Made by a program: the position numbers and the translations under genes
The notes under the pieces: model-generated
The model's database searches: none
What the model saw: the letters and a program-made list of their open reading frames with translations, nothing else
What the model was told of the DNA's origin: nothing
Assembly (NCBI GenBank): GCA_030619905.1
Contig: JAUXAO010000002.1
Span: forward strand, 65,193 to 129,192
DNA: 64,000 nt
From: a bacterium
GTDB taxonomy: Bacteria > Patescibacteriota > Minisyncoccia > Minisyncoccales > CG1-02-41-26
Reading direction: 5' to 3'
Part shown: positions 7,979-62,450 of the stretch, one piece after another
Layout of the letters: each line of letters begins with the position of its first letter
Numbering within the stretch: the stretch's first letter is position 1

Positions 7979-8035
7979 CCATTCCCCCTTTTTATTTTCC
8001 TCCTTTTTATTAACGAGCTAGTTAGAACATTCCAA

Positions 8036-9816: not shown

Positions 9817-10269
9817 TTATTTCTTTTCTAAACTCATTTTTACTGCTTTAGATAGCCTGGTAAGGATAAAGATAGCAGAAACTTCCAGGGCGACAGTAGT
9901 AATCCTTCCCAAGGATTCTACAAACACACCTTCTGAAGAATAACTAAAATAACTTTTTGTCAAAAAGTTGATAATATATAAAATAACAACTAACGCAATC
10001 CAGACATAGACAAACCATTCCCCTTGCCTTTCTACTTCTTTCTTCTCCAACCATCTCAGTATTTCTTTATGAATAGAATAAAGGAACAAGACCCCGATGT
10101 AGAAAAAATTTATTCCAGAAGGAGGAAAAGTTCCCCGAGCAAAAAATTCTATTACCACCATAGTCATTACTATTAAAGTAATGACAGCACAAATAATAAA
10201 TAGATTTTTATTTATGGCAAGTTCTGCCTTTTTTAACCTTTTTAATTTTTCTTCAGATATTTTAGACAT
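9817..10269 (-). CDS. hypothetical membrane protein
   Basis: ORF track. Several long hydrophobic segments. Confidence 0.55.
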   Translation of the reverse strand: MSKISEEKLKRLKKAELAINKNLFIICAVITLIVMTMVVIEFFARGTFPPSGINFFYIGVLFLYSIHKEILRWLEKKEVERQGEWFVYVWIALVVILYIINFLTKSYFSYSSEGVFVESLGRITTVALEVSAIFILTRLSKAVKMSLEKK

Positions 10270-10355: not shown

Positions 10356-10441
10356 ATTATCTACCAAAAAACCGTCTGAATAAAAAGACGATTTTATTTG
10401 CTGCGGATATGAGATAATGTTAGAACCTGTTTTGTGGAGAT
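10356..10441 (-). repeat. copy A of the dispersed 3' element, with terminator and -10-like box
   Basis: The minus strand directly after stop 10442 reads ..ACAGGTTCTAACATTATCTCATATCCGCAGCAAATAAAATCGTCT-TTTTATTC-AGACGGTTTTTTGGTAGATAAT. It is homologous to 14439-14536 and 15033-15130. Confidence 0.6.
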
Positions 10442-11266
10442 TTAGCTTGGTCTAAAAACTAAATCTAAAGAAAAATTATATTTATCGCATAAATTTATAA
10501 CTCTTTTCTTTATCTTTTCATAATACTCATTTGTAAGCCATTCTTGACGATAATTTAAAGCTAAATCTGAATAATATTTATCAAGTACTTTTTTAATTTC
10601 TGACCAATTACCACATTTGATGTTTAATCTATCTAAAAGAATTGTTTTAATCCCCACTTCTTTAAAGAGCCTGAATAACTTCTCTAAATCTTTATCGCTT
10701 ATTCCTGGAATAAAGGGCCCAAGGAAAACTAAAGTAGAAATTCCTGCTTTACTCATTTTTTCTAAAGCCAATAAACGACTCTTAACTGAAGAAGCCCTAG
10801 GTTCAAAATTTTTTGCATCTTTTTCATCTAGACAGATAATAGTAAAGCCAGGTTGAGCCCAACGATTAGAGGTATCAAATCTTTTAATAATATCAATATC
10901 TCTTGTTATTAACGGTGATTTAGTCAACAAAGCAATCTGAAAATTATTCTTTGCTAAAACTTCTAAACAACGACGAGTAATTCTATATTTTGCTTCAACT
11001 GGCTGATAAGCATCTGTTACCGAAGAAATCATTACTAAGCCAGGTTTTAAATACTTAACTTGTTTTTCTAAAACCTCAGGAGCATTTATTTTTACATCAA
11101 CAAATTCGCCCCATTTTTCTTTTCCTTTTCTATAACGACACATAAAACGAGCATAACAATAAACACACCCGTGAGAACAGCCTACATAAGGATTGAAATT
11201 ATAGTCAAACCCTTCTATTTTGCAAGGGTTTAAAACTTTTTTGCATTTAATTTCTTTAATTTTCAT
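10442..11266 (-). CDS. radical SAM protein (SPL / photolyase-like radical SAM family)
   Basis: CSHGCVYCYA CxxxCxxC motif near the N-terminus; 274 aa. Confidence 0.75.
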   Translation of the reverse strand: MKIKEIKCKKVLNPCKIEGFDYNFNPYVGCSHGCVYCYARFMCRYRKGKEKWGEFVDVKINAPEVLEKQVKYLKPGLVMISSVTDAYQPVEAKYRITRRCLEVLAKNNFQIALLTKSPLITRDIDIIKRFDTSNRWAQPGFTIICLDEKDAKNFEPRASSVKSRLLALEKMSKAGISTLVFLGPFIPGISDKDLEKLFRLFKEVGIKTILLDRLNIKCGNWSEIKKVLDKYYSDLALNYRQEWLTNEYYEKIKKRVINLCDKYNFSLDLVFRPS

Positions 11267-11273
11267 ATTCTCA

Positions 11274-11302
11274 ATTCTACCAAAAAACCGCCTTCTTGGC
11301 GA
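11274..11302 (-). promoter_or_regulatory. terminator plus extended -10 module (copy D)
   Basis: Minus strand reads TCGCC-AAGAA-GGCG GTTTTTT GG TAGAAT, 7 nt before ATG 11266. TCGCCA sits 17 nt upstream of TAGAAT. Confidence 0.5.
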
Positions 11303-11405
11303 TATAATATTTTTAAAAAACTAAAAAGATAATTTTAAAGATATAATTGTTTAATCTCTAAAAAAGATGAAATAAAATTGTATCTAATAAATTCTTTTAT
11401 AATAT

Positions 11406-11448
11406 TAGAAAATAAATAGGCCCCTGTTCTTTGAAAGAACAAGGGCCC
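11406..11448 (-). terminator. intrinsic terminator after the UPF0182 gene
   Basis: Minus strand reads GGCCCTTGTTCTT-TCAA-AGAACAGGGGCC followed by TATTTATTTT. Confidence 0.55.
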
Positions 11449-11460
11449 TCTTTTTTGTTT

Positions 11461-14241
11461 TTATAACGAATCGTTAATTCGTTTCAAGATATTTTCCAAT
11501 TCGTTAATCTTTTCAATTGCAGCTTTTATTAATTCTTCTGGAGTAATTTCAACACCTTCTTCTAGAAGATCAGAAGCTTTGATAATTTTTCCCGAATAGA
11601 GATTATTTAAAGCTTCCTCCAGTGTTTTTCCCCAAACAACAGATTGGCTGCCTAAAGCTACTATTACCCGTTTTATCTGAGGCATTTCTCCAGTTTCCGC
11701 TTTTAAATATACGGGCTCAACATAGAGAATGCTGTTCCCAATCGGAATAACTAGTAGATTTCCCCTGATAACGCTAGAGCCAACCTGTCCCCATAGGGTG
11801 AAGTTCTGAGACATCTCGGTGTCTTGATCAATCTTTGCCTCAATCTGATTAGGCCCGTAGATTAACATTTTTTTGGAAAACTTATAGAGAAGCAATTTTC
11901 CATAATTCTCTTCATCACAACGGGCACACATCCAAGCAATCATATTATTTTTTGCTTTAGGGGTGAAAGGCAACATCAAGACAAACTCTTCAAAATCTTG
12001 GCCAGGTAATTTTATTATCACATAGTATGGTTCAACCTGCTGAGAATATTCATAATACTTTTCCTCAGCAATCTCCCACGCATCCTCCTTGTTGTAAAAA
12101 ACTTTTGGGTCATGCATATGATAATCTTTGAGCATTCTTGCCTGGACAGTAAAATAGTCCTCCGGATACCGTATATGCTTTCTAATTGCATCAGGCATCT
12201 CTGACTTAGATTTAAATAACTCAGGAAATATACGTTGGTAAGTCCTGATGATAGGATCGTCTTCATCAAAGATGTAAAGAGAAACATCACCGTTGTAAGA
12301 ATCTATGACTACCTTTACTGAATTTCTCATGTAATTGATTCTATTGAAGTCTTTTAGTGCTTTATCATCGCTATATCTCTCCGAATAAGGAAACTTTTTA
12401 CTCGTAGTATAAGCATCTAAGAGCCAATAAATCTTTCCGTTTTCGATGACAATATAAGGATCTCTATCAAAGATAAGGAATGGTGCAATTCTTTTCACCC
12501 TTTCCATGATATTGCGATAAAGCATTATCCTGCTTTCTCTTGTTATGTACCCAGATAGTAAAAATGGAAAACCACCGCATCTAAGTGCAAAGGAGAATTT
12601 TCTTAGGTATGAACTTAGTTCTATACCTCCTTCTCCTTCATAAGTTGTGTACATGTTTCCATCTCCTTTTGGATAATCAAACTCCTTTTCCGTTGCTTTG
12701 ACAACAATATAATCATTAGACAATTCACTAAAGTAGGCCCTTGGTTGTTCAATTTCTACCTCCTGATATTCTGTTTTTGGAGGCATATCTTTTATTATCA
12801 GATTAGGAAGACCACCCTCAACAAATTCACTCACCGGTGTTGCCGTAACTCCAAACGCATGGGTATAAATAATCTTTTTATTTACAAATGTTTTAGATTT
12901 ACTGAGTAATTTTTCTTTGTTCAATTCGCGCAAAGAAAGCATAATCTGTTTGTATTCTCCACCAATATAGTATCTGTCGATATCAATATCGAAGAACTCA
13001 TAGTAAAGTCTTATAGCCTGAAGCTGATTTATGGTAAGTTTAAGAGCTCTCCAATCCCATAGACGAATATTCTTAATCGTCTTTGAATTTTCCTCCAATA
13101 ATTTCTCGTCGATTTCATCAACATAAGGAAACTCTTGATATTCAATTTCATGGAGATTAAAAGCTGTATTTGTGCCTTTAATATTCCTGACTATATACGG
13201 CTCCTCCAGCACTAGCTCATTAGGAGATACCTTAAAGAATTGAACCAACATAGAAGGTACATAGTTCAAAACCATAAGGACAATTATTAATGCGAGAAAT
13301 CCTAATCCAAGTTTTGTAAAACTTCTTTTTTGTGAAGCAATAAAAACAAGAATTCCCACAATGGCTCCAATCGCACAACAAATAATAATTGTATATATGG
13401 TCATTTGAATATGAACATCTGTATACCCTGCTCCAATAACAATACCTCTTTCAGAATAAACTAAGAAGTACTTACTTAAAATAGTTCGCCAAATACAAGT
13501 TACAGTGAGCCAAGCTATAAGCAGAATGCCTATGTGACGAGAACCAGTTTTCTCTACAGAACTACAGCTGTCTTTCTCTGCTGAAAAATTTCCCCCATAA
13601 ACTATAGAAGTATAAGCTATGGTGAAAGTTGCTATTAAGAATAATAGAGAATACATGATTATCTTAGAAATCAAGTTTTGAAAAGGAATAGAGAATAAGA
13701 AAAAACTAATATCCTTTCCAAAGAGTGGGTCAACTGTTCCAGCAGGGACTTGATTAATCCAAAGTAAGACGACTTGCCATAAATATCTACTGATGACTGC
13801 CAATGCCAGAGCGAAGAATACACCTACAAATTTAAGAATAGTATATGTAGTCTTCAATTCACGTTCCACATACTTATCGATATAAGCTTTTCCTTCTGCG
13901 TTGACCTTTGTAAATGGTTTCCTAGTAAACTTCTCAAACATTCTCAGATTAATCGAGAAAATCAACCAACTTAATATTAGTGTCCCGAAAAACAACATCC
14001 AGCGCCAATAAATTACCTTCCAGAATCTTGCTGAAAATCCGACACTCTGAAACCAAAGAGACTCTGTGAAAATTGAGTTGCCCCAAAGAAGAGAAATGAG
14101 CAGAAAAGAACCAAGAAAAGCAAGACTAAAGCTTATTTTCCAATCTTTCCTTGTCACTTCTGATTCGTTTAACAATCTAATTGACTTAACAATAAGCGGT
14201 ATAAAAAAACAAGCCAATACAATAAAAAGTAAAAATTTCAT
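11461..14241 (-). CDS. UPF0182 family large membrane protein
   Basis: About 925 aa, with N-terminal TM segments and the SLWFQSVGF..W.V...R motif typical of UPF0182. ATG 14241 lies 8 nt after AAGGAG; the track start 14250 is a GTG. Confidence 0.8.
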   Translation of the reverse strand: MKFLLFIVLACFFIPLIVKSIRLLNESEVTRKDWKISFSLAFLGSFLLISLLWGNSIFTESLWFQSVGFSARFWKVIYWRWMLFFGTLILSWLIFSINLRMFEKFTRKPFTKVNAEGKAYIDKYVERELKTTYTILKFVGVFFALALAVISRYLWQVVLLWINQVPAGTVDPLFGKDISFFLFSIPFQNLISKIIMYSLLFLIATFTIAYTSIVYGGNFSAEKDSCSSVEKTGSRHIGILLIAWLTVTCIWRTILSKYFLVYSERGIVIGAGYTDVHIQMTIYTIIICCAIGAIVGILVFIASQKRSFTKLGLGFLALIIVLMVLNYVPSMLVQFFKVSPNELVLEEPYIVRNIKGTNTAFNLHEIEYQEFPYVDEIDEKLLEENSKTIKNIRLWDWRALKLTINQLQAIRLYYEFFDIDIDRYYIGGEYKQIMLSLRELNKEKLLSKSKTFVNKKIIYTHAFGVTATPVSEFVEGGLPNLIIKDMPPKTEYQEVEIEQPRAYFSELSNDYIVVKATEKEFDYPKGDGNMYTTYEGEGGIELSSYLRKFSFALRCGGFPFLLSGYITRESRIMLYRNIMERVKRIAPFLIFDRDPYIVIENGKIYWLLDAYTTSKKFPYSERYSDDKALKDFNRINYMRNSVKVVIDSYNGDVSLYIFDEDDPIIRTYQRIFPELFKSKSEMPDAIRKHIRYPEDYFTVQARMLKDYHMHDPKVFYNKEDAWEIAEEKYYEYSQQVEPYYVIIKLPGQDFEEFVLMLPFTPKAKNNMIAWMCARCDEENYGKLLLYKFSKKMLIYGPNQIEAKIDQDTEMSQNFTLWGQVGSSVIRGNLLVIPIGNSILYVEPVYLKAETGEMPQIKRVIVALGSQSVVWGKTLEEALNNLYSGKIIKASDLLEEGVEITPEELIKAAIEKINELENILKRINDSL

Positions 14242-14383
14242 CACGATCACTCCTTTTTTCTTTCTTTATATTTTAATGAACATAAGTGAACCAAAAATAT
14301 TATCTATTTGTATATCACCTCCTTTTATATAAGACATACTGAATGATAATATTTACACCATTTATTTTAAATGACTATTGATT

Positions 14384-14411
14384 ATTATATCATCTATCTA
14401 TAAAAAGTCAA
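14384..14411 (-). promoter_or_regulatory. sigma-70-type promoter for the UPF0182 gene
   Basis: Minus strand reads TTGACT (14411-14406), a 16-nt spacer, then TATAAT (14389-14384). Confidence 0.5.
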
Positions 14412-14438
14412 GCAAGATTGGTTTGATTTAAATATAAT

Positions 14439-14536
14439 AAAAAACCGCCCGAATAAAAAGACGATTTTTATTTACTGGGCATCGTGGACAACGTTAGAAC
14501 CGTATTTCAGGAATTAGATGAGTATGTTTATATCCC
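14439..14536 (-). repeat. copy B of the dispersed 3' element with terminator
   Basis: Minus strand reads GGGATATAAACATACTCATCTAATTCCTGAAATACGGTTCTAACGTTGTCCACGATGCCCAGTAAATAAAAATCGTCT-TTTTATTC-GGGCGGTTTTTT. It starts 35 nt after stop 14571. Confidence 0.6.
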
Positions 14537-14570
14537 AGACTTAGCTGAATGATGCTAGAAGCTACTTAAG

Positions 14571-15017
14571 CTAAATCTCTTTTCCTTCACGTTCACTATA
14601 AATTATATTGTTTAGAAAAGAATCAATTGCTTGTTTTATATATGGTATTATATTTTGGGGCAAATTATCTAATTCAAACCAACTTAAATCGTCACATTTA
14701 TCGGTTTCCATAATTTTGGGTTTTCCTTGCCATTTTTTAGCTGTAAAGAAAAAGTCTATCCTTTCATCGTCTGGTATCCTTCTGTTCATCGTATGAATTA
14801 GCTCTAAATCTGTTGGGGCTACAACTACATCTATTTCTTCTTTTACTTCTCTTACCATGCCCTGTTTTAATGTTTCATCCTCATCAAGGTGTCCAGCGGG
14901 GAAACTATAGTTACCATCAAAATATCCCGTATTATACCTTCTGGAAAGAAGGATTTTATTGTCTTTTATTAGAACTAAATATACAGAAGCTATTACCTTA
15001 AATCTTTCTTTAGTCAT
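14571..15017 (-). CDS. NUDIX hydrolase
   Basis: NUDIX box GHLDEDETLKQGMVREVKEEIDV. Confidence 0.85.
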   Translation of the reverse strand: MTKERFKVIASVYLVLIKDNKILLSRRYNTGYFDGNYSFPAGHLDEDETLKQGMVREVKEEIDVVVAPTDLELIHTMNRRIPDDERIDFFFTAKKWQGKPKIMETDKCDDLSWFELDNLPQNIIPYIKQAIDSFLNNIIYSEREGKEI

Positions 15018-15032
15018 ATAATTTACTTTAGC

Positions 15033-15130
15033 AAAAAACCGTCTTCTTGGCGAGACGATTGAAATTTACTGCGGGTATGGGACGACGTTAGAACCAGGAC
15101 TGAGGGATCAGCTGAGTATATTTATATCCA
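15033..15130 (-). repeat. copy C of the dispersed 3' element with terminator
   Basis: Minus strand reads TGGATATAAATATACTCAGCTGATCCCTCAGTCCTGGTTCTAACGTCGTCCCATACCCGCAGTAAATTTCAATCGTCT-CGCCAAGA-AGACGGTTTTTT. It aligns without gaps to copy B. By hand count, 57 of 78 positions before the hairpin are identical. Confidence 0.6.
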
Positions 15131-15144
15131 AGATATAGCTCCTC

Positions 15145-15624
15145 CTATTGGACGCGCTTAGAACTGTGTATACGGAGCATTAGTTCTTTTAGTTTATGAA
15201 AATAATGATTTGGATCATCTGAAGCCCACTTTATTTTCTTTATCTCGGTATGACAATTCGTGCAACGTTCAAGTCTATCTGTCCAAGGAAATCTCCAGTC
15301 AAAACTTTTGCACTTATCACAATAAAAGGCTATGCAGCGATAGGGCTCACCACCTCTTTCGTTCCAAACACTTCCCCACGCTTCTTGCCAGAAACCACAA
15401 AACTTACACGCTCTATACTTACGCGTTATTTCTCCTGCGTTATTTACTGTGACTTTTGGACCATAAAATCCAACGGATCGACATTTGGGACACTGTAGCG
15501 AACAACCACTATGAAACCAGTTAGGATGTTGTCCACAAAACTTGTCCAAGCGCATTTCTTCTTCCCACTGCTTTTCAGTATATTCTGTCCCATTAGTTGC
15601 ATCTTCTTTTTTGTCGCTTGTCAT
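15145..15624 (-). CDS. hypothetical Cys-rich (multi zinc-ribbon-like) protein
   Basis: Several CxxC pairs (CPKC, CKFC, CDKC, CTNC). A hand-counted line is about 43% GC, well above the local background. Confidence 0.55.
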   Translation of the reverse strand: MTSDKKEDATNGTEYTEKQWEEEMRLDKFCGQHPNWFHSGCSLQCPKCRSVGFYGPKVTVNNAGEITRKYRACKFCGFWQEAWGSVWNERGGEPYRCIAFYCDKCKSFDWRFPWTDRLERCTNCHTEIKKIKWASDDPNHYFHKLKELMLRIHSSKRVQ

Positions 15625-15731
15625 AATTATATTTTACTTCTTACCTCTTAGTTACTGATTTAATTGATTTTTTTATTTATCTAAAAAAAGAATTGGGTTT
15701 ACTTTTTATATCGTTATTTATAGTTTAATTG

Positions 15732-15802
15732 CTGCGGGGCTTGGACTCGAACCAAGATCAGATCCTCCAAGGGGACCTGTCCTACCATTAGACGACCCCG
15801 CA
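15732..15802 (-). tRNA. tRNA-Gln (anticodon UUG)
   Basis: Hand-folded cloverleaf: TGCGGGG/CCCCGCA acceptor with U1:A72 and G73, D arm GTCT-AATGGTA-GGAC, anticodon arm GGTCC-CCTTGGA-GGATC, T arm CTTGG-TTCGAGT-CCAAG. Position 33 is an unusual C. Confidence 0.75.
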
Positions 15803-27606: not shown

Positions 27607-27660
27607 CCAAAAAACTTGACTCTTGAAGAGTCGTGGACTCCGTGAGATTTAGTTGGAACC
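27607..27660 (-). repeat. diverged copy J of the 3' element with terminator
   Basis: Minus strand reads GGTTCCAACTAAATCTCACGGAGTCCAC-GACTCTT-CA-AGAGTC-AAGTTTTTTGG, 39 nt after stop 27699. Confidence 0.4.
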
Positions 27661-28304: not shown

Positions 28305-29573
28305 TTACTGGCAGCCAAGTAAATCTTTTATTTGCTCAAAGGTTCTGTATCCAATATATACTTTTTCATCAATAACAAATGTTGGAACTCCTGAAAATTC
28401 ATGCTGAATTGGCCCAATCGTAACATCAACCTGATTCACCTTTACTCCCAATTCTTCAATTCTCTCAATTGTTCCATCGTCTTTTACCTTTTGGCAAGAG
28501 CCACATCCTTCAGAATAATAAAAAACCATCTCTTTAAATTCACATTCCAACTCTTCCAATGGTATCTCTGTAGTTTCTTCTTCTGTCTGGGGCTCTGTTG
28601 TTCTTCTCTCCTGCATTTCTTCTTCTGACAAAGTAGGCGCGGCAGAAGTCGTTACTGTAGTAGTAAAAAGAACAAGAAAACACTCGTCTGGTGTTGTTAC
28701 TCCCGCTTCCCTGCATCTATTTCCAACCGATGAACATATCTCTGGCGTTCCTCCTACTTCCATACAGAAATCCTCAATCTGTTCAAACGATTGAAAACCC
28801 TGAAGAGGAATTTTCTCACAGATCTCTGGTGGTAGTCCTCCCTCCTCTGTACAGAAAAAAGCTTTAAGCGATTCAGAGCTCTGAAGATCATTCACAAGTG
28901 ATGCACATATCTCTGGTGGTGTTCCTTGTTCTATACAGAAAGCTCTAAACCATTCAAAGCGTTGAACCCTCATTTGAATTCTCTCTCTTACCTCTACTGG
29001 AACCTCTATTGGCAGAAGAACTTCTTCTGGAACTTCGCCCAAAGCATTTTGTGCTTTTAATGCCTCAACTGCTTTTTCGTGTCCCTTTACTGAAACCTTC
29101 ATTGCATTTTCAACGGCAGGTTTCGCCTCCTCGGGAACTTTCTCATAAACTTCAGCCAAAACCTCTAAATGAATATGTGTTGTCTTCCCGGCTTTAGCTA
29201 GGACTTCCATAACTTTTTCAGTATTCTCACCTTTAGCCATAGCTTTTTCTGCCCTGGCTATACTATTATTTAATTGCATTTCATATCTTTCCAGGGTTTT
29301 TTCTGCGAATTCTGGCTTTCCTTTATCTACCACAGCTTTTGCTTCAGCCAGTCTTTCAGCAGCTAAAGTAGCATATCTTTCAGCTTTTTTTAGATCGCCA
29401 AAAGTAAAGAAAGTGCCAATCTCTTCGGCAATTATCTCCAGAAAATAGAATAGACTGTCAGGAGTAAGTCCCGGACTTGGAAGTTCTATTCCCTGAGCTA
29501 AAACTCCTGATCCGAGAGAGAATAGAAATATTGAGGTTATTAGTATAGATATTACTTTCATAATTTGCTTCAT
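28305..29573 (-). CDS. secreted DUF5667-like protein with Cys-repeat linker and C-terminal glutaredoxin/thioredoxin-like domain
   Basis: Signal peptide, then PSPGLTPDSLFYFLE (DUF5667-type). Three C..(E/Q/V)GG(L/T)PPEIC repeats follow, then a C-terminal GCGSCQK...GVPTFVIDEKVYIGY. Confidence 0.6.
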   Translation of the reverse strand: MKQIMKVISILITSIFLFSLGSGVLAQGIELPSPGLTPDSLFYFLEIIAEEIGTFFTFGDLKKAERYATLAAERLAEAKAVVDKGKPEFAEKTLERYEMQLNNSIARAEKAMAKGENTEKVMEVLAKAGKTTHIHLEVLAEVYEKVPEEAKPAVENAMKVSVKGHEKAVEALKAQNALGEVPEEVLLPIEVPVEVRERIQMRVQRFEWFRAFCIEQGTPPEICASLVNDLQSSESLKAFFCTEEGGLPPEICEKIPLQGFQSFEQIEDFCMEVGGTPEICSSVGNRCREAGVTTPDECFLVLFTTTVTTSAAPTLSEEEMQERRTTEPQTEEETTEIPLEELECEFKEMVFYYSEGCGSCQKVKDDGTIERIEELGVKVNQVDVTIGPIQHEFSGVPTFVIDEKVYIGYRTFEQIKDLLGCQ

Positions 29574-29605
29574 TGCTTTTTATATTTTGCTGACCTTTTA
29601 TCTTT

Positions 29606-29635
29606 ATTCTATCAAAAAATCGCCTTCTTGGCGAG
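29606..29635 (-). promoter_or_regulatory. terminator plus extended -10 module (copy E)
   Basis: Minus strand reads CTCGCC-AAGAA-GGCGA TTTTTT GA TAGAAT. The hairpin sequence is the same as in copy D. Confidence 0.5.
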
Positions 29636-34053: not shown

Positions 34054-35616
34054 TTAAACTATTCCTTGAGTTTTAAGTTGAGTAATTTTTCTCTTTAATA
34101 ATTTGTTTGCTCTATATGCTTCTATTTGTTTTTTCCTCTTTTCTGACCATTCGTCAAATCCAATTAGTTCTGATCTAAAAACCCAAAGAATTGTCAGGGT
34201 TATAATTAATGGAAACAAGATAGAGTTTAAAATTCCATTACTTATACCTGTTGGAACATCAGTAACTCCAGCCACTGCTGTTCTTCTAACTATGACCTTA
34301 CAAGTATCGCTGTCAGAAGTTTCCGTATTATATGCCAGAGCAGTATTAATTAAATTAGTTGTTCCATAACTGAATTCACCTTTAGACTCTACTTTTGCTT
34401 CAAAAGTAATTGTTTTTGTCTGACCAGATGATAAATCTCCTATATTAATTGCCTGAGTGCTAATGTTTTTAGAAGAATAAACATTATTTATTCTCAGATT
34501 ACCCTCATAAGTAATATTATCTGGCAAAGTATCTTTTACCATTACGTCTCGAGCTTTTGTACCTCCTGTTGACTCAATCTCTATTTGAAAGAGTAATCTA
34601 TCAGATGGGTCAGCACTTCTATAAGAGTGATACCATTTAGTATCTCCCCTAGAAAGATTCTTAACTGATTTACTAACATTTAAAGAGACGTTAGAATCAT
34701 TTCTTTCTTTAACCAAAACTCTCATACTATCAGAGTCAGTGCGGCCTTCATTATCAGTAACCGTCAGATGACAAGTGTAATGTCTGTCATAACTCACTGA
34801 TGGAGCATTAAAAGTAGGTCGAGCAGTATATCTATTTGAAAGATTACCTCCACTACAAGACCAATAATAAGTTACTGAATATCCATCAGGATCATAACCT
34901 GAACCATTTAAGGTGACAGATTGATTTTCATAAACATTCTTGTCAGAGCCAGCATCTGCAACCGGAGGATCACCTGAATAAGTACTAACATTAATCATTA
35001 CATTATCGCTTACTGAACCACCAGGACCTGAACAAGTAATATTGTAGGTTTTTGAAGAAGTAAGACTCCCTGTTGATTCGGAACCAGAAGTAGATTTTGT
35101 TCCTGACCAGGCGTTGGAAGCATAACAAGAATCAACATTAGATGAAATCCAGATTAAATTGGCTGAAGTATTGTAAGGAATAGTAATCGGTCCGTCAGAA
35201 CCATTGACCTTAATATCAACACTGAGACCAAAAGTAGTAGTAAAAGTCTTATTCTCGCCATAAGAAGTATCGGCACTGTTTCTGGCTACTGCTCTGTAAT
35301 GATAGGTGGTAGAAGGAGATAATCCAGTGACAGTAATACAATAAAAACCTGTTTGTGTTAAAGTCTTTTCAATTGTTTTTTGTCCATACCCCATTGTTTG
35401 TCCATACTCAAACCAAACAGAAGTTGTCAAATCTCCACCCATATCAGTTAATTCTCCAACAAAGATTACTGTAGTTCCGCTCACAGTAGTATTGGCTGGA
35501 CAACTTTCGGCTAAAGCAAAATTAGCAGAAAACAAACTGGTTCCTATTCCAATAAAAATTCCTAAAAATAACAAAACTTTTAAGAATAAAGTTCTTTTAA
35601 TTTTTTTTCTAAACAT
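34054..35616 (-). CDS. large surface protein (FN3-like N-domain, Ig-like domain, PKD-like domain, DUF11-like repeat, C-terminal TM)
   Basis: Signal peptide. The VWFEYGQTMGYG..Y.YRAVARNSADTSYGENKTFTT domain is shared with the 35637 gene. It also has a PKD-like DPDG..YYWS segment and a DUF11-like VMVKDTLPDNITY segment. The C-terminal end reads VPTG + hydrophobic helix + RS, followed by a 40-aa basic tail. Confidence 0.6.
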   Translation of the reverse strand: MFRKKIKRTLFLKVLLFLGIFIGIGTSLFSANFALAESCPANTTVSGTTVIFVGELTDMGGDLTTSVWFEYGQTMGYGQKTIEKTLTQTGFYCITVTGLSPSTTYHYRAVARNSADTSYGENKTFTTTFGLSVDIKVNGSDGPITIPYNTSANLIWISSNVDSCYASNAWSGTKSTSGSESTGSLTSSKTYNITCSGPGGSVSDNVMINVSTYSGDPPVADAGSDKNVYENQSVTLNGSGYDPDGYSVTYYWSCSGGNLSNRYTARPTFNAPSVSYDRHYTCHLTVTDNEGRTDSDSMRVLVKERNDSNVSLNVSKSVKNLSRGDTKWYHSYRSADPSDRLLFQIEIESTGGTKARDVMVKDTLPDNITYEGNLRINNVYSSKNISTQAINIGDLSSGQTKTITFEAKVESKGEFSYGTTNLINTALAYNTETSDSDTCKVIVRRTAVAGVTDVPTGISNGILNSILFPLIITLTILWVFRSELIGFDEWSEKRKKQIEAYRANKLLKRKITQLKTQGIV

Positions 35617-35625
35617 AGTTTTTTT

Positions 35626-35930
35626 AAGATAATAAATTAATAAGTGACTATTGCCGGTTTAGTGACTACTACCGGTGGATTTGGCGTTACAATTACCGTG
35701 ACCGAATCGGTTCCTGTCTTGATTTCAGTCGCATCTTTACAGGTAAGAGTGAAAGTATATGTCTTTACAGTATTCATTTGAATTGTTTGGGAACCAGAAA
35801 TTGCTTTTGAACCTGACCAATCGCCAGAAGCCTGGCAAGAAACTGAATTTTCTGACGTCCAGGACAAAATGACATTATCCTTGTAAGAAACAGTAATTGG
35901 TCCATTTGAATTATTGGCTTTGATATCTAC
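35626..35930. repeat. 305-bp direct repeat, copy 1 (3' end of the surface-protein gene plus 11 nt of 3' flank)
   Basis: Aligns without gaps to 36378-36682 (offset 752). By hand count there are about 15 mismatches in 305 nt. Confidence 0.85.
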
Positions 35931-36314
35931 GATTATTGGCAGACATTTGGTAGTAAAGGTCTTATTCTCGCCATAAGAAGTGTCGGCACTGTTTTTGGCT
36001 ACTGCTCGGTAATTATAGGCAGTACAAGGATCTAAATTATAGACAGTGGCACAAAAAATACCTATTCCATATTTCGAAGAATGAGGACTTTCAAAACCAT
36101 AGCTCATAGTTTTCCCGTACTGAAACCAAACTTCTAAATTAGGATCTCCCCCGTCATCAATTACTTCACCAACTAAAGTAGCCTGTGTTTCTTCCACTAC
36201 GGTATTCGAAGGACAACTTCCTTGAGCTAATGCAAAATGAACCAATACCAAGCTCGCTGCTAAAAAGATGGTGAAAAATAATATGTTTTTTAATACTGCT
36301 TTTTTTATTACCAT
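35637..36314 (-). CDS. surface protein paralog (FN3-like N-domain plus Ig-like C-domain)
   Basis: Signal peptide. The N-domain is paralogous to 34054..35616 and the C-terminal ~100 aa are nearly identical to 36389..37123. It ends ..TKPAIVTY. Confidence 0.6.
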   Translation of the reverse strand: MVIKKAVLKNILFFTIFLAASLVLVHFALAQGSCPSNTVVEETQATLVGEVIDDGGDPNLEVWFQYGKTMSYGFESPHSSKYGIGIFCATVYNLDPCTAYNYRAVAKNSADTSYGENKTFTTKCLPIIVDIKANNSNGPITVSYKDNVILSWTSENSVSCQASGDWSGSKAISGSQTIQMNTVKTYTFTLTCKDATEIKTGTDSVTVIVTPNPPVVVTKPAIVTY

Positions 36315-36377
36315 AATTTTGTTTGTTTTATTTTTTTTCTCGACTTTATATTTGACTATTTTCTAATTTTTTCTTTA

Positions 36378-36682
36378 AAGATAATAAATTAATAAGTGAC
36401 TATTGCCGGTTTAGTGATTACTACCGGTGGATTTGGCGTTACAATTACCGTGACCGAATCGGTTCCTGTCTTGATTTCAGTCGCATCTTTACAGGTAAGA
36501 GTAAATGTATTTGTTTTTACTTCATTCATCTGAATTGTTTGGGAACCAGAAATTGCTTTTGTTCCTGACCAATCGCCAGAAGCCTGGCAAGAAACTGAAT
36601 TTTCTGACGTCCAGGACAAAATAATATTATCCTTGTAAGAAACAGTAATTGGTCCATTTGAATCATTGGCCTTGATATCTAC
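36378..36682. repeat. 305-bp direct repeat, copy 2
   Basis: See 35626-35930. Confidence 0.85.
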
Positions 36683-37123
36683 TGAAGGAGCTAAGTAGCC
36701 ACAATCCTCTGGGCAATTGAAACTGGTTTCTCCACAACTTGAATTACAAGTTCCATCTCCGCAGTAATAACACTGGCTGTCACAAGATTGCCAAGAAGAC
36801 CATTCATAGCAACAGTCAGAATCATAATTACTACAAGTTCTACCAGAAGTGCCTGAACACTCGTGTTGACCAACATAGGCGCATTCATCAGCACAAGTTG
36901 GAGGATTTGTATACCACTGAGACCATTCATAGCAGCAGTCAGAATCATAATCACCACAAACCCTATAAGAATCCCCTGATGTTTGTGTTTGACCTACATA
37001 AGCACATTCATCGGCACAAGTGCCAGTTACATCAATTAGTGCCAAAACAGAAAACGGCTGGACCAAAAGAAAACCAGCCAAAATAACAGGAAACAGTTTT
37101 TTATTTAATTTATTTAATTTCAC
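36389..37123 (-). CDS. surface protein paralog (two Cys-rich CADECAYVGQ...CCYEWS modules plus Ig-like C-domain)
   Basis: Signal peptide. The internal ~40-aa Cys-rich module occurs twice, and the C-terminal domain is shared with the 35637 gene. The track start is a GTG and there is no nearby ATG. Confidence 0.55.
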   Translation of the reverse strand: MKLNKLNKKLFPVILAGFLLVQPFSVLALIDVTGTCADECAYVGQTQTSGDSYRVCGDYDSDCCYEWSQWYTNPPTCADECAYVGQHECSGTSGRTCSNYDSDCCYEWSSWQSCDSQCYYCGDGTCNSSCGETSFNCPEDCGYLAPSVDIKANDSNGPITVSYKDNIILSWTSENSVSCQASGDWSGTKAISGSQTIQMNEVKTNTFTLTCKDATEIKTGTDSVTVIVTPNPPVVITKPAIVTY

Positions 37124-61232: not shown

Positions 61233-61261
61233 ATGATTTTTTAATTTTTATCTACTGTTCT

Positions 61262-61303
61262 ATTCTACTAAAAAATCGCCTTTGTTGAAAGTCGAATTGG
61301 CGA
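61262..61303 (-). promoter_or_regulatory. terminator plus -10 module (copy G)
   Basis: Minus strand reads GTCGCC-(loop)-GGCGA TTTTTT AG TAGAAT, after the rarA stop and before the 61232 gene. Confidence 0.45.
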
Positions 61304-61322: not shown

Positions 61323-62450
61323 TTATTTTAGATATTTCTTCCCTTTTAATTTATCTGGTAGTAAATCTTCTTTAGTATATTTCTCATATCCTTTTCCATA
61401 ATCTAATTTCTTCATAAGTTTTGTAGGTGCATTACGTAATAATAAAGGAATTGGCAAGTTTCCATATTTCTTTACATCTTCCATTGCTTTCATATAAGCC
61501 TCGTAAGCACTTCTGTCTTTTTTGCTTTTACATAAATAAACTACTCCATGAGCTAGATTAATACCACATTCTGGCAATCCAATGATTTCCACGGCCCTGA
61601 ATACATCATTTGCCACTACCAAAGCTGTGAGTTGGATTATTCCAATGTCTTCTGAGGCAAAAATAACCATTCTTCTTGCTATAAACTTAGGATCCTCTCC
61701 AGAATCAATCATTCTGGCCAGATAATATAAAGCAGCATCTGGTTGAGAAGCTCTCATGCTTTTAATAAAAGCGGAAATAGTATTATAATGTTCATCTCCT
61801 TGTTTATCATACCTTAGAAACTTTGATTGAAGAGTATTTTTTAAAGTTTCTACGGTAATTTTATTATAAAGCTTGGATGTGCTTTCTAACATGGCAATTG
61901 TTTGTCTTGCATCTCCATTTGCCATAGCAATCAACCAATCCTTTGCTTTTTTATCCATTTTAAATCCAGTTCGTTTGATAATGGCTAGCATTTCTTTTTC
62001 TGAAAGTTCATTTAAAACAAAAACTCTGCATCTTGAAAGCAGAGGCGAAATTACTTCAAAGCTTGGGTTCTCTGCAGTAGCTCCAATAAGAGTTATTTCT
62101 CCTCTCTCTACAATTGGAAGTAAGAAGTCTTGTTGAGCTTTATTAAAGCGATGAATTTCGTCTAAAAACAAGATTTTAGGTTGTTCTCCAGTATCTTCAG
62201 CTACTATCTTTTTAATATCTGTTTTTCCTGCTGAAACAGCAGATAATTCGTAAAAACGTGCTTTTAAACTATTAGCATATATCTTGGCTAAAGTAGTTTT
62301 TCCTGTTCCTGGAGGACCCCAGAGAATAAAAGAAAATAGATGCTTTTGTTTTATAGCAATATTTAAAGGCTTGCCTTCCCCTGCTAGATGTTCTTGTCCT
62401 ACAAATCCTTTTAATGTTTTTGGCCTTATCCTTGAAGCTAATGGTTCCAT
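61323..62450 (-). CDS. rarA: replication-associated recombination protein A (MgsA/RarA), without the N-terminal zinc finger
   Basis: LASRIRPKTL, Walker A GPPGTGKTT, FLDEIHRFNK and the C-terminal MgsA_C pattern (YDKQGDEHYN.ISA..KS.R.S.PDAALYY..RM). Confidence 0.9.
   Translation of the reverse strand: MEPLASRIRPKTLKGFVGQEHLAGEGKPLNIAIKQKHLFSFILWGPPGTGKTTLAKIYANSLKARFYELSAVSAGKTDIKKIVAEDTGEQPKILFLDEIHRFNKAQQDFLLPIVERGEITLIGATAENPSFEVISPLLSRCRVFVLNELSEKEMLAIIKRTGFKMDKKAKDWLIAMANGDARQTIAMLESTSKLYNKITVETLKNTLQSKFLRYDKQGDEHYNTISAFIKSMRASQPDAALYYLARMIDSGEDPKFIARRMVIFASEDIGIIQLTALVVANDVFRAVEIIGLPECGINLAHGVVYLCKSKKDRSAYEAYMKAMEDVKKYGNLPIPLLLRNAPTKLMKKLDYGKGYEKYTKEDLLPDKLKGKKYLK

What the first reader, a model, noticed from the sequence alone, without database searches (positions are those of the whole stretch)
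10365..15130. Dispersed family of conserved non-coding elements fused to terminators right after stop codons of unrelated singleton genes
On the minus strand, the DNA after the stops of the radical SAM gene (10442), the NUDIX gene (14571) and the Zn-ribbon orphan (15145) is homologous: GGATATAAAyATACTCA.CT.AT.CCT...GGTTCTAACGTyGTCC....CmGCAGTAAAT...AATCGTCT-loop-AGACGGTTTTTT. Copies B (14439-14536) and C (15033-15130) align without gaps over 98 nt, with 57 of 78 positions before the hairpin identical by hand count. Copy A (10365-10427) keeps the 3' two-thirds. A diverged copy (GGTTCCAAC..hairpin..T6) follows the 27699 gene at 27607-27660. GTTCTAAC also occurs at the start of the 8036-promoter transcript (plus strand GTTAGAAC at 8021-8028). 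The elements are non-coding. The genes they trail are functionally unrelated, mostly monocistronic, and partly GC-atypical. Possible explanations are 3'-UTR-derived small RNAs, a binding platform for an RNA or DNA-binding protein, or the conserved end of a cassette-like mobile unit.
Basis: seen in the sequence. Interest (0 to 1): 0.6.

Follow-up and report, generated by a model that had tools for sequence, protein, structure and literature searches.

The report
Serine-integrase scars downstream of tRNA-Gln
The three repeated "non-coding elements" are attachment-site scars (attR type) left by a large serine integrase that inserts mobile DNA at the end of the tRNA-Gln gene, and they mark a variable gene-cassette island found at the same spot in many CPR (Patescibacteria) genomes.

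Summary
Copies A, B and C are real and homologous (nhmmer E 1e-9 to 1e-10 against a profile built only from other genomes). Copy D and the GTTAGAAC at 8021 are chance matches.

All three lie on the minus strand just downstream of tRNA-Gln(UUG) (15731-15802).

- **Core:** the 27-nt core GGTTCTAAC..GTCC......C.CAG occurs 247 times in 133 loci fetched from other, mostly CPR, genomes and metagenomes. Copies are always co-oriented, with a median spacing of 729 nt. In 25 of the 26 loci that hold a tRNA-Gln, they lie downstream of it.
- **Relation to the tRNA:** the core is the tRNA-Gln 3' end (GGTTC...CAG) with exactly 5 extra bases. This is the known attP-versus-attB half-site offset of large serine recombinases (LSRs).
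- **Relation to the LSR gene:** the reverse complement of the core encodes the conserved "LL..DDVRT" near the C-terminus of an LSR family. A circular 9.9-kb element carries the intact site.
- **Four-site relation:** attP = P+P', attL = tRNA+P', window A/B/C = P+B', tRNA + trailer = B+B'.
- **Flanks:** the "fused terminator" is the tRNA-Gln trailer. The 5' part of B and C is the displaced 3' end of the LSR gene.

No RNA structure is supported. How arrays without any integrase gene are built remains open.

The parts
15731..15802 (-). tRNA-Gln(UUG), the anchor of the island. Its T-loop-to-3'-end segment GGTTCGAGTCCAAGCCCCGCAG (15753 to 15732) is the inferred B half-site of attB.
   Evidence: ARAGORN and Rfam. 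Fourth-best hit of the independent core profile, E = 0.003. 26 of 36 tRNAs in the fetched loci are tRNA-Gln, and 25 of those 26 lie upstream of the cores on the same strand. Alignment A4.
15145..15624 (-). Cargo 1: a 159-aa orphan ORF with no Pfam match. Its stop codon lies inside the degenerate outer core copy of element C.
15033..15164 (-). Element C, an attR-type scar. It has four parts: a degenerate outer core copy (about 15164-15131); a displaced LSR C-terminal tail (15140-15096; the antisense reads ..DDVRTRTEGSAEYIYIQDIAPPIGRA*); the P half-site core GGTTCTAACGTCGTCCCATACCCGCAG (15095-15069); and the B' trailer with terminator hairpin and T-run (15068-15033).
14571..15017 (-). Cargo 2: a NUDIX hydrolase gene. 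Distant NUDIX cassettes lie between cores in L046 and L097.
14439..14562 (-). Element B, an attR-type scar. It has four parts: a degenerate outer core copy (14562-14546); an LSR tail (14546-14502; the antisense reads ..DNVRTVFQELDEYVYIPDLAE*); the P half-site core GGTTCTAACGTTGTCCACGATGCCCAG (14501-14475); and the B' trailer with terminator (14474-14439).
10442..14250 (-). Cargo 3: a UPF0182 membrane protein gene (11461-14250) and a radical SAM gene (10442-11266), each with its own terminator.
10365..10451 (-). Element A, a decayed attR-type scar. The P half-site core GGTTCTAACATTATCTCATATCCGCAG (10427-10401) departs from the family at near-invariant positions 13 and 16 and has an in-frame antisense stop. 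Its tail is of the short 'VRTC..*' type. The B' trailer with terminator spans 10400-10365 and matches the tRNA-Gln trailer of relative L029 (blastn 95.7% over 46 nt).
9817..10269 (-). A 150-aa ORF downstream of A. Its homologue in L122 (58% aa identity) also directly follows a core, so it is probably a further cassette. The far edge of the island is not defined.

Best explanation
Elements A, B and C are attR-type junctions (P half-site + crossover + B' half-site) of a large serine recombinase (LSR) whose chromosomal target, attB, is the 3' end of tRNA-Gln plus its trailer.

In the mobile form, attP sits inside the 3' coding end of the LSR gene itself, on the opposite strand. The core GGTTCTAAC..GTCC......C.CAG is the reverse complement of the codons for LL..DDVRT. 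Integration therefore has three consequences:
1. It leaves the tRNA intact.
2. It fuses the LSR body to tRNA-antisense codons (attL).
3. It deposits the last 3-30 LSR codons plus the 25-bp P half-site in front of the old tRNA trailer (attR).

Each window element thus reads, 5' to 3' on the minus strand: displaced LSR tail, then P half-site, then crossover (about C-CA-G), then tRNA-Gln trailer including the tRNA's own intrinsic terminator. The terminator now ends transcription of the cargo gene upstream of it.

The three scars, with no recombinase gene in the 64-kb window, delimit a 5.4-kb island of accessory genes.

**Shown here:** homology, tRNA-Gln anchoring, the four-site relation, the 5-bp register shift, a circular element with an intact attP, and variable cargo in relatives.

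**Inferred:** the exact crossover dinucleotide, that this LSR catalyses the reaction, that the terminators function, and how several LSR-less cassettes accumulate.
For: 1. **Spread and arrangement.** Pattern scans found the core in 8 genome loci (mostly CPR MAGs) and 120 metagenome loci. nhmmer counts 247 cores in 133 loci. All 54 loci with two or more cores have them on one strand, with a median spacing of 729 nt.
2. **tRNA-Gln anchoring.** 26 of 36 tRNAs in those loci are tRNA-Gln, and 25 of the 26 lie upstream of the cores on the same strand. The window has the same layout.
3. **Five-base offset.** GGTTC to CAG spans 27 nt in cores and 22 nt in tRNA-Gln, so the alignment shows a 5-nt gap. 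Rutherford et al. 2013 (PMC3783163) show that the zinc-ribbon-domain motif sits 5 bp closer to the centre in attB than in attP, and that attP half-sites are 25 bp.
4. **The recombinase.** The L080 ORF abutting tRNA-Gln is a bona fide LSR with Resolvase, Recombinase and Zn_ribbon_recom domains. Its ORF reads into the tRNA antisense (..LPIRDSNPN). Of 117 CPR-type homologues, 57 end in tRNA-antisense tails. At least 10 end in P-type tails (..LDEVRT...), including the short 'VRTCVMT*' type seen in A and the '..SPFAFVRSW*' type seen in arrays.
5. **A free circular form.** P0128, with an intact tail, lies on 9,915-bp contigs from 4 samples. These are rotations of one another with 30-nt end overlaps, so the element is circular. 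Its attP is a pseudo-palindrome with 25-bp arms: TACTGGA....GTT.G.AC on both sides, 14 of 24 positions identical.
6. **Four-site relation.** In alignment A4, attP and attL share P' (CACT.CTGGATTTTGTTCGCA). L080 attR, window A/B/C and the L029 tRNA-Gln trailer share B' (CAAAT.AAAATCGTCTTTTTATTCAGGCGG).
7. **Coding origin of the tails.** Tails of B and C stay open for 16-20 antisense codons and are conserved as peptide (..EYIYIPDL..) in 11 loci, with a modest excess of third-position variation: entropy 0.80/0.72/1.03. One such tail is joined to an LSR-like remnant, P0245.
8. **Variable cargo.** Eight loci share dnaX-tRNA-Gln with the window, but their first core lies 303-7457 nt downstream and the cargo is unrelated.
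Against: - No recombinase gene lies in the window (tblastn). The source genome is not in the collections, so activity in this organism cannot be judged.
- Canonical LSRs recombine only attP with attB, so repeated insertion at one tRNA is not explained by textbook rules.
- Only 6 of 128 array loci hold any LSR-like sequence. This is hard to reconcile with simple decay of whole elements.
- No full-length LSR with the EYIYIPDL tail of B and C was found.
- The window's own tRNA-Gln trailer matches the B' consensus only for the first 8-10 nt.
- The circular element also encodes a tyrosine integrase.
- The codon-position signal in the tails is weak.
Confidence: 0.82

Rival explanations
1. Active, integron-like or SCC-like cassette system. 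Each unit (B' trailer, gene, tail, P half-site) is a mobilisable cassette that an LSR supplied in trans inserts and excises precisely at tRNA-Gln. On this reading the P+B' junctions are working sites, not dead scars. This extends the best explanation rather than excluding it.
For: - Junctions are uniform P+B' with clean edges, and LSR remnants occur in only 6 of 128 loci.
- Gene-sized spacing and strict co-orientation.
- The same cassette sits in different array positions with different neighbours, for example L033 1560-1951 and L082 800-1191.
- Ends of homology blocks are enriched at cores.
- Cargo resembles integron cargo: toxin-antitoxin pairs in L008 (identified by eye from the translations), and methyltransferase, NUDIX, cupin, CYTH and histidine phosphatase genes confirmed by Pfam.
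- L095 shows five tail+core junctions followed by an intact LSR gene at a P+P' junction.
Against: - No small circular cassette was found among the 128 array loci (L001-L128).
- Canonical LSR synapsis rules forbid attB x attR recombination (PMC3783163).
- Element A is degenerate at near-invariant core positions.
- Conservation of tails beyond the 25-bp half-site suggests each scar came fresh from a functional LSR gene.
- Homologous recombination between the roughly 100-nt repeats could produce the same pattern.
Confidence: 0.3
2. A structured RNA element or 3'-UTR-derived small RNA that is conserved for an RNA-level function, such as stability, processing or protein binding.
For: Position right after stop codons with a terminator, and conservation across genomes.
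Against: - RNAalifold finds 0 base pairs in 13 homologues.
- Single-sequence folds of tail + core are no better than shuffles, z +0.6 to +1.0.
- No Rfam family matches, even at E up to 10.
- Only 53 of 240 cores are followed by a terminator-like site.
- The conservation is explained by the recombinase site and the coding tail on the other strand.
Confidence: 0.03
3. att scars of a tyrosine integrase, the classical type of tRNA-targeting island, rather than of the LSR.
For: tRNA genes are the usual targets of tyrosine integrases (Islander, PMC4383910). The circular 9.9-kb element also encodes a Phage_integrase protein.
Against: - The site lies inside the LSR gene's 3' end and co-varies with LSR tail type.
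- attP is a 2 x 25-bp pseudo-palindrome.
- attP and attB share only about 5-8 contiguous bases at the centre plus a motif shifted by 5 bp, which is the LSR signature. Tyrosine-integrase islands typically carry a long identical segment that regenerates the tRNA.
- L080 has the LSR, not a tyrosine integrase, abutting the tRNA.
Confidence: 0.04
4. Leftovers of a local segmental duplication with no wider meaning.
For: Three copies lie within 5 kb.
Against: 247 related cores occur in 133 loci from many genomes. The genes between the window's copies belong to unrelated families, and repeat-finding recovers only the elements themselves, not the intervening genes.
Confidence: 0.01

Closest known systems
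Large serine integrase attachment sites (A118/Listeria, Bxb1 and phiC31 type; Rutherford et al. 2013, PMC3783163)
   Same: - Short sites made of two half-sites around a central dinucleotide.
- attP half-site of 25 bp, with a pseudo-palindromic attP.
- The outer motif lies 5 bp closer to the centre in attB than in attP.
- Hybrid attL and attR products.
- The enzyme has Resolvase, Recombinase and Zn-ribbon domains.
   Different: - The target is a tRNA gene end.
- attP lies inside the integrase's own 3' coding region, so integration swaps the protein's C-terminal tail.
- The enzyme is at most 27% identical to any LSR in the phage and plasmid collections searched.
- Many attR-type sites accumulate in one array.
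Tycheposons and tRNA-seeded genomic islands of Prochlorococcus (Hackl et al., bioRxiv 10.1101/2020.12.28.424599)
   Same: Streamlined genomes with variable islands seeded at tRNA genes. Successive integrations push older elements further in. Partial tRNA repeats and integrase fragments are scattered through the island.
   Different: - 910 of 937 of those elements use tyrosine recombinases.
- Their repeats are true partial tRNAs.
- Here the repeat is the P-type half-site with a 5-nt register shift plus a recombinase tail.
- Here units are often single genes and recombinase remnants are nearly absent.
Staphylococcal cassette chromosome (SCC) composite islands at rlmH (for example bioRxiv 10.1101/336396; PMC6222049 for enterococci)
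   Same: LSR-mediated (Ccr) insertion at the 3' end of one conserved gene. Tandem arrays include recombinase-less pseudo-SCC units, each bounded by direct att repeats.
   Different: - The target there is a protein-coding gene, not a tRNA.
- SCC units are kilobases to tens of kilobases long.
- Ccr genes are not split by their att site.
- That SCC att sites support tandem insertion because Ccr is promiscuous is my recollection and was not checked here.
Integron gene-cassette arrays
   Same: Co-oriented, gene-sized units, each ending in a conserved recombination site, next to a fixed platform. The cargo is small accessory enzymes and toxin-antitoxin pairs.
   Different: - There is no IntI tyrosine recombinase.
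- The site is not an attC: there is no R''/L''-L'/R' imperfect palindrome and no GTTRRRY partner 50-140 nt downstream (read from the sequence).
- The platform is a tRNA gene.
SSV-type archaeal integrases whose attP lies inside the int gene (from my own knowledge; no paper read here)
   Same: The attachment site is embedded in the recombinase gene and matches a tRNA gene, so integration partitions the gene and leaves int fragments next to tRNA-like repeats.
   Different: Those are tyrosine recombinases that are split into two large parts. Here a serine recombinase loses only its last 3-30 codons and probably stays functional.

Membership tests
Large serine recombinase attachment sites (attP/attB/attL/attR) | An LSR gene (Resolvase + Recombinase + zinc-ribbon domains) is physically associated with the site. 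| tested here: met
   Pfam on the L080 ORF. attP lies inside the LSR genes of L129 and L133. The association is not met inside the window itself, which has no LSR.
Large serine recombinase attachment sites (attP/attB/attL/attR) | Four-site relation: attP = P+P', attB = B+B', attL = B+P', attR = P+B'. | tested here: met
   Alignment A4 of the circular attP, L080 attL and attR, window A/B/C, and tRNA-Gln with its trailer.
Large serine recombinase attachment sites (attP/attB/attL/attR) | Pseudo-palindromic attP of about 50 bp, with the outer (ZD) motif 5 bp closer to the centre in attB. | tested here: met
   Arms TACTGGA....GTT.G.AC, 14 of 24 identical, 25-bp half-sites. 27 nt against 22 nt from GGTTC to CAG. 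Rule taken from PMC3783163.
Large serine recombinase attachment sites (attP/attB/attL/attR) | Recombination is catalysed at a central dinucleotide by this enzyme. | not testable with these tools
   This needs an in vitro or in vivo assay. The crossover is placed at about C[CA]G only by symmetry and by where the sequences switch.
tRNA-anchored genomic island | Located immediately 3' of a tRNA gene, with the same anchor but different content in relatives. | tested here: met
tRNA-anchored genomic island | A displaced direct repeat of the tRNA 3' segment marks the far end of the island. | tested here: inconclusive
   The repeat is tRNA-like (E = 0.003) but is the P-type version with 5 extra nt, not a true partial tRNA. 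True B-type duplicates exist in L017, L118, L061 and L029 but not in the window.
Integron (attC cassette array) | attC imperfect palindrome with R'' (RYYYAAC) and R' (GTTRRRY) ends, and an IntI integrase with attI. | tested here: not met
   The repeats are direct. No GTTRRRY partner lies downstream. No conserved hairpin is found. No Phage_integrase domain was found among the window ORFs scanned against Pfam.
Structured non-coding RNA / Rfam family | Conserved secondary structure with covariation, or a match to a curated model. | tested here: not met
Intrinsic terminator (the 3' part of each element) | G+C-containing hairpin followed by a T-run at the end of a gene. | tested here: met
   B, C; A: -9.3 kcal/mol, z = -2.3. 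Function in vivo was not tested.

The most novel reading that the evidence does not exclude
CPR bacteria, usually seen as poor in mobile elements, may carry a phylum-wide cassette platform at tRNA-Gln that works like an integron or SCC island. It would be run by a previously uncharacterised clade of large serine recombinases whose attP is embedded in their own 3' coding end. Single-gene cassettes bounded by P+B' sites would be inserted, excised and exchanged by the LSR acting in trans. For example, a circle carrying an attR-type site could be captured at attL, and released again by attB x attP recombination in cis. This would make the window's elements B and C working recombination sites rather than fossils.
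Probability: 0.3. Interest if true: 0.75.

Novelty: new variant of a known kind. Interest (0 to 1): 0.5.

Why it matters
- **Annotation.** It explains a conserved 'orphan' intergenic element in CPR genomes and gives a simple marker for accessory-gene islands in fragmented MAGs: GGTTCTAAC.T.GTCC......C.CAG downstream of tRNA-Gln.
- **Gene calling.** It shows that some small 'genes' called there (for example P0241-P0245) are displaced integrase tails.
- **CPR biology.** It points to a main route of gene gain in very small genomes.
- **Tools.** It supplies a natural set of attP, attB, attL and attR sites for a divergent LSR clade. These may be useful as orthogonal integrases, and the tRNA-derived attB suggests how such enzymes evolve their targets.
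- **Open question.** If the cassettes prove mobile in trans, this would be a serine-recombinase counterpart of the integron.

Tried and rejected
- **Rfam:** gathering thresholds and E up to 10 gave only tRNAs plus noise.
- **Source genome:** exact look-ups of the NUDIX and orphan proteins were not on record.
- **Viral contigs:** neither core pattern matched. An LSR alignment was too divergent for the search for related loci.
- **Ideas considered on first sight and dropped:**
  - CRISPR-like repeat-spacer-repeat: the 'spacer' is conserved between genomes, so it is not a spacer.
  - DGR variable/template repeats: mismatches are not adenine-specific and there is no reverse transcriptase nearby.
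  - REP/MITE: the repeats are direct, clustered and co-oriented.
  - attC: no palindrome partner.
  - dif/Xer site: no 11-6-11 symmetry.
  - tRNA-like processing signal: no T-arm pairing, position 57 of the would-be T-loop is a pyrimidine, and no fold is supported.
- **Copy D and the 8021 motif:** rejected as chance.
- **Full-length LSR with the EYIYIPDL tail:** the search found only small ORFs.
- **Small circular cassettes:** none found among the 128 array loci (L001-L128).
- **Codon-position test on the core:** no periodicity (0.44/0.20/0.20), so the core looks constrained as DNA, not only as codons.
Full report
**1. The observation.**
On the minus strand, the DNA after the stops of the radical SAM gene (10442), the NUDIX gene (14571) and the 159-aa orphan (15145) is indeed homologous. 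A keeps the 3' two-thirds. A profile built from A, B and C finds only these three copies at significant E-values in the window. A second profile, built solely from 172 cores of other genomes, finds C, B and A at E = 4e-10, 9e-10 and 9e-9.

Copy D (27607-27660) and GTTAGAAC at 8021 are not recovered (E above 40). GGTTCTAAC with one mismatch is not enriched: 14 matches against 11.0 +/- 3.4 expected. No Rfam family matches.

**2.
A tRNA-Gln(UUG) gene (15731-15802, minus strand) sits directly upstream of the first unit. The order on the minus strand is:

- dnaX
- tRNA-Gln
- orphan gene
- element C
- NUDIX gene
- element B
- UPF0182 gene
- radical SAM gene
- element A

The fourth-best hit of the independent core profile in the whole window is the 3' end of this tRNA (E = 0.003).

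**3. The element elsewhere.**
A pattern from the invariant core positions found 8 loci in the species-representative genome collection. Six of the eight record titles name CPR/Patescibacteria lineages (Nomurabacteria, Paceibacterota, Saccharibacteria bins, Patescibacteria group); the other two say only 'bacterium' (two records) or Gammaproteobacteria (one bin).

- In these 128 loci plus five later ones, nhmmer counts 247 cores in 133 loci.
- All 54 loci with two or more cores have them on one strand. The median spacing is 729 nt, with an interquartile range of 521-1263 nt.
- The consensus is AaacaGGTTCTAAC.TcGTCCA...ccC.CAGCaaa.
- ARAGORN finds 36 tRNAs in the loci. 26 are tRNA-Gln, and in 25 of those 26 loci the tRNA lies upstream of the cores on the same strand. 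The loci were selected on the core alone, so this association is not built in.
- Eight loci share dnaX-tRNA-Gln with the window (68-77% nucleotide identity). Their first core lies 303-7457 nt downstream, and their cargo is unrelated to the window's.

**4. What the parts are.**

*(a) The terminator.* In relative L029 the tRNA-Gln gene is followed directly by AAATTAAAATCGTCTTTTTATTCAGGCGGTTTTTTGGTAGAAT. This is the sequence that follows the core in window A and B (blastn 95.7% over 46 nt for A). In other genomes a different tRNA-Gln trailer, CAGTC..GCTCGGTATCGAGAGACCGAG, follows both the tRNA and some cores. The 'fused terminator' is therefore the tRNA's own downstream flank, carried along with the site.

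*(b) The core.* From GGTTC to CAG the core has 27 nt and the tRNA 22 nt. The two align with one 5-nt gap.

*(c) The opposite strand.* The reverse complement of the core reads TTG CTG CGG GTC GTG GAC GAC GTT AGA ACC, which translates to LLRVVDDVRT. A family of large serine recombinases has exactly this motif near the C-terminus.

- The full-length L080 ORF has Resolvase, Recombinase and Zn_ribbon_recom domains. It abuts tRNA-Gln convergently and reads on into the tRNA antisense (..VLPIRDSNPN).
- Database homologues number 1634 for the L095 type and 2663 for the L080 (CPR) type.
- Of 117 CPR-type proteins, 57 end in tRNA-antisense tails, which is the integrated (attL) state. At least 10 end in ..LDEVRT plus a tail. 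These include 'VRTCVMT*', the short type of window A, and '..ITGSSAFAFMKAW*', a type seen at many array junctions.

*(d) The 5' part of B and C.* Read on the antisense strand, it stays open for 16-20 codons and is conserved as peptide (..VRT.[FI]Q...EY[IV]YIPDL..*) in 11 loci. Third-position variation is modestly in excess, with entropies of 0.80, 0.72 and 1.03. It is a displaced C-terminal tail. One such tail is still joined to about 50 LSR-like codons (P0245).

**5. The mobile form.**
P0128, an LSR with an intact tail, lies on 9,915-bp contigs from four samples. These are rotations of one another with 30-nt end overlaps, so the element is circular and about 9.9 kb. It also encodes an HTH_17 protein (possibly a directionality factor; this is inference), a tyrosine integrase, a DEAD/ResIII helicase and an N6_N4 methyltransferase.

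Its attP, taken here from the L133 copy, is GGTTCTAACTTCGTCCAGTACCCC[CA]GCACTACTGGATTTTGTTCGCACA. It is a pseudo-palindrome. The left arm read outward is GGGGTACTGGACGAAGTTAGAACC and the right arm is GCACTACTGGATTTTGTTCGCACA. They share 14 of 24 positions, in the blocks TACTGGA and GTT.G.AC. This gives 25-bp half-sites.

Rutherford et al. 2013 (PMC3783163) report a 25-bp attP half-site, with the zinc-ribbon-domain motif 5 bp closer to the centre in attB. That matches the 27-nt against 22-nt difference seen here.

**6. The four-site test.**
Alignment A4 places together the two circular attP sites, L080 attL, L080 attR, window A/B/C, and the tRNA-Gln ends of L029 and the window.

- Left arms fall into the P type (attP, attR, window A/B/C) and the B type (tRNAs, attL), which has the 5-nt gap.
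- Right arms fall into P' (attP and attL: CACT.CTGGATTTTGTTCGCA) and B' (attR, window A/B/C, L029 tRNA trailer: CAAAT.AAAATCGTC...).

This is the relation attP = P+P', attB = B+B', attL = B+P', attR = P+B'. Window A, B and C are attR-type. The switch point is in C.CAGCA, and symmetry puts the central dinucleotide at about C[CA]G. That lies in the last bases of the tRNA, so the tRNA is not damaged by integration. The position is inferred.

**7. RNA-level rivals.**
RNAalifold on 13 tail + core homologues predicts no pairs. The pre-terminator parts of A, B and C fold no better than shuffles, with z from +0.6 to +1.0. Only 53 of 240 cores are followed by a terminator-like site, so the terminator is a property of one trailer type and not of the element.

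**8. What remains unexplained.**
Arrays are almost free of recombinase remnants: LSR-like sequence occurs in only 6 of 128 loci. Junctions are uniformly P+B'. The same cassette occurs in different positions with different neighbours. Ends of homology blocks lie within 60 nt of a core in 16.6% of cases, against 5.9 +/- 1.3% for random positions.

Canonical LSR rules allow only attP x attB recombination, so they do not give repeated insertion at one tRNA. Three routes are possible, all inferred:

- Capture of circles carrying an attR-type site at an attL, in an excision-type reaction, with release by attB x attP recombination in cis. L095 shows the predicted array ending in an intact LSR at a P+P' junction.
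- A promiscuous, Ccr-like enzyme.
- Homologous recombination between the roughly 100-nt repeats.

No cassette circles were found.

In the window, A is degenerate at near-invariant core positions 13 and 16 and has an antisense stop. B and C fit the consensus.

**9. Comparison with known systems, and novelty.**
The kind is known: integrase att scars in a tRNA-seeded island. The closest comparators are Prochlorococcus tycheposon islands (bioRxiv 10.1101/2020.12.28.424599), Islander-type tDNA islands (PMC4383910) and SCC composite islands (bioRxiv 10.1101/336396).

The variant features are:

- a serine rather than a tyrosine recombinase at a tRNA;
- attP inside the recombinase's own coding end, with a tail swap on integration;
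- gene-sized units without a recombinase, in arrays spread widely across CPR genomes.

The enzyme is at most 27% identical to any LSR in the INPHARED and PLSDB collections. A recent survey of Patescibacteria genomic islands does not contain the words tRNA, integrase or recombinase (PMC12455944). My literature searches found no description of this system, but the library searched is partial.

**10. Verdict.**
The elements are LSR attR-type junctions at tRNA-Gln (confidence about 0.8). Whether they are still active cassette sites is open (about 0.3).

Noticed in passing
window 11263-11303, 29595-29634 and 61251-61290 (minus strand): A compact intergenic module: terminator hairpin, T-run and a 'TGGTAGAAT' extended -10-like box, all within about 10-25 nt of the next ATG. 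The same module forms the tRNA-Gln trailer of relative L029, and the terminator parts of elements A, B and C belong to the same repeat families.
   Followed up: partly
window 35073-36670: Repeats of about 710-750 nt (95% and 82% identical copies) that overlap ORFs 34054-35616, 35637-36314 and 36389-37123. They look like tandemly duplicated genes or domains.
   Followed up: no
L056:2110-2805, L036:4628-5317, L062:1756-2448, L077:2107-2802, L005:463-1242: An ORF sits between dnaX and tRNA-Gln. In L056, L036, L062 and L077 it is one ~230-aa family with no Pfam hit at E<=0.001; an 'AEGSK' motif read by eye suggests LAGLIDADG. The separate 259-aa ORF in L005 has a sub-threshold LAGLIDADG_3 hit. A homing-endonuclease-like gene may thus lie at the same hotspot. 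It is absent from the window.
   Followed up: partly
L017, L118, L061 and L029, 30-40 nt downstream of tRNA-Gln: Extra B-type (22-nt register) copies of the tRNA-Gln 3' end follow a conserved hairpin. They may be secondary attB sites or footprints of earlier events.
   Followed up: no
L005:1320-1350, also L069, L077, L088, L062, L111 and after some cores (L006:2088, L005:6741): A conserved hairpin trailer, CAGTC..GCTCGGTATCGAGAGACCGAG, follows tRNA-Gln in several genomes. It contains an ATCGAG motif at roughly the distance expected for a B' half-site. Its role was not examined.
   Followed up: no
L129-L132 (9,915-bp circular element) and L133: A circular element of about 9.9 kb encodes both a large serine recombinase and a tyrosine integrase, plus an HTH_17 protein, a DEAD/ResIII helicase and an N6_N4 DNA methyltransferase. 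It was recovered in four samples with different start points.
   Followed up: partly
L080:13237-13248, L129:4503-4514, L133:7040-7052: A second GGTTCTAAC lies about 95 nt from the attP core inside the LSR genes and encodes the conserved 'RLEP'. Whether it is an accessory binding site or a coincidence of coding is unknown.
   Followed up: no
window 61323-62450 and 28305-29573: Homologues of these two window genes lie right next to cores in other genomes (after a core in L021 and L107; before a core in L001), although no core is detectable beside them in the window.
   Followed up: partly
P0241-P0245 (small called ORFs of 39-81 aa in metagenome assemblies): Gene callers annotate the displaced LSR tails (..IVDNVRTIIQRQNEYIYIPDL..) as small proteins. 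These are probably annotation artefacts.
   Followed up: partly
window 11418-11448 (minus strand): A 14-bp, almost perfect G+C-rich hairpin terminator follows the UPF0182 gene. It is far stronger than the other terminators in the region.
   Followed up: no
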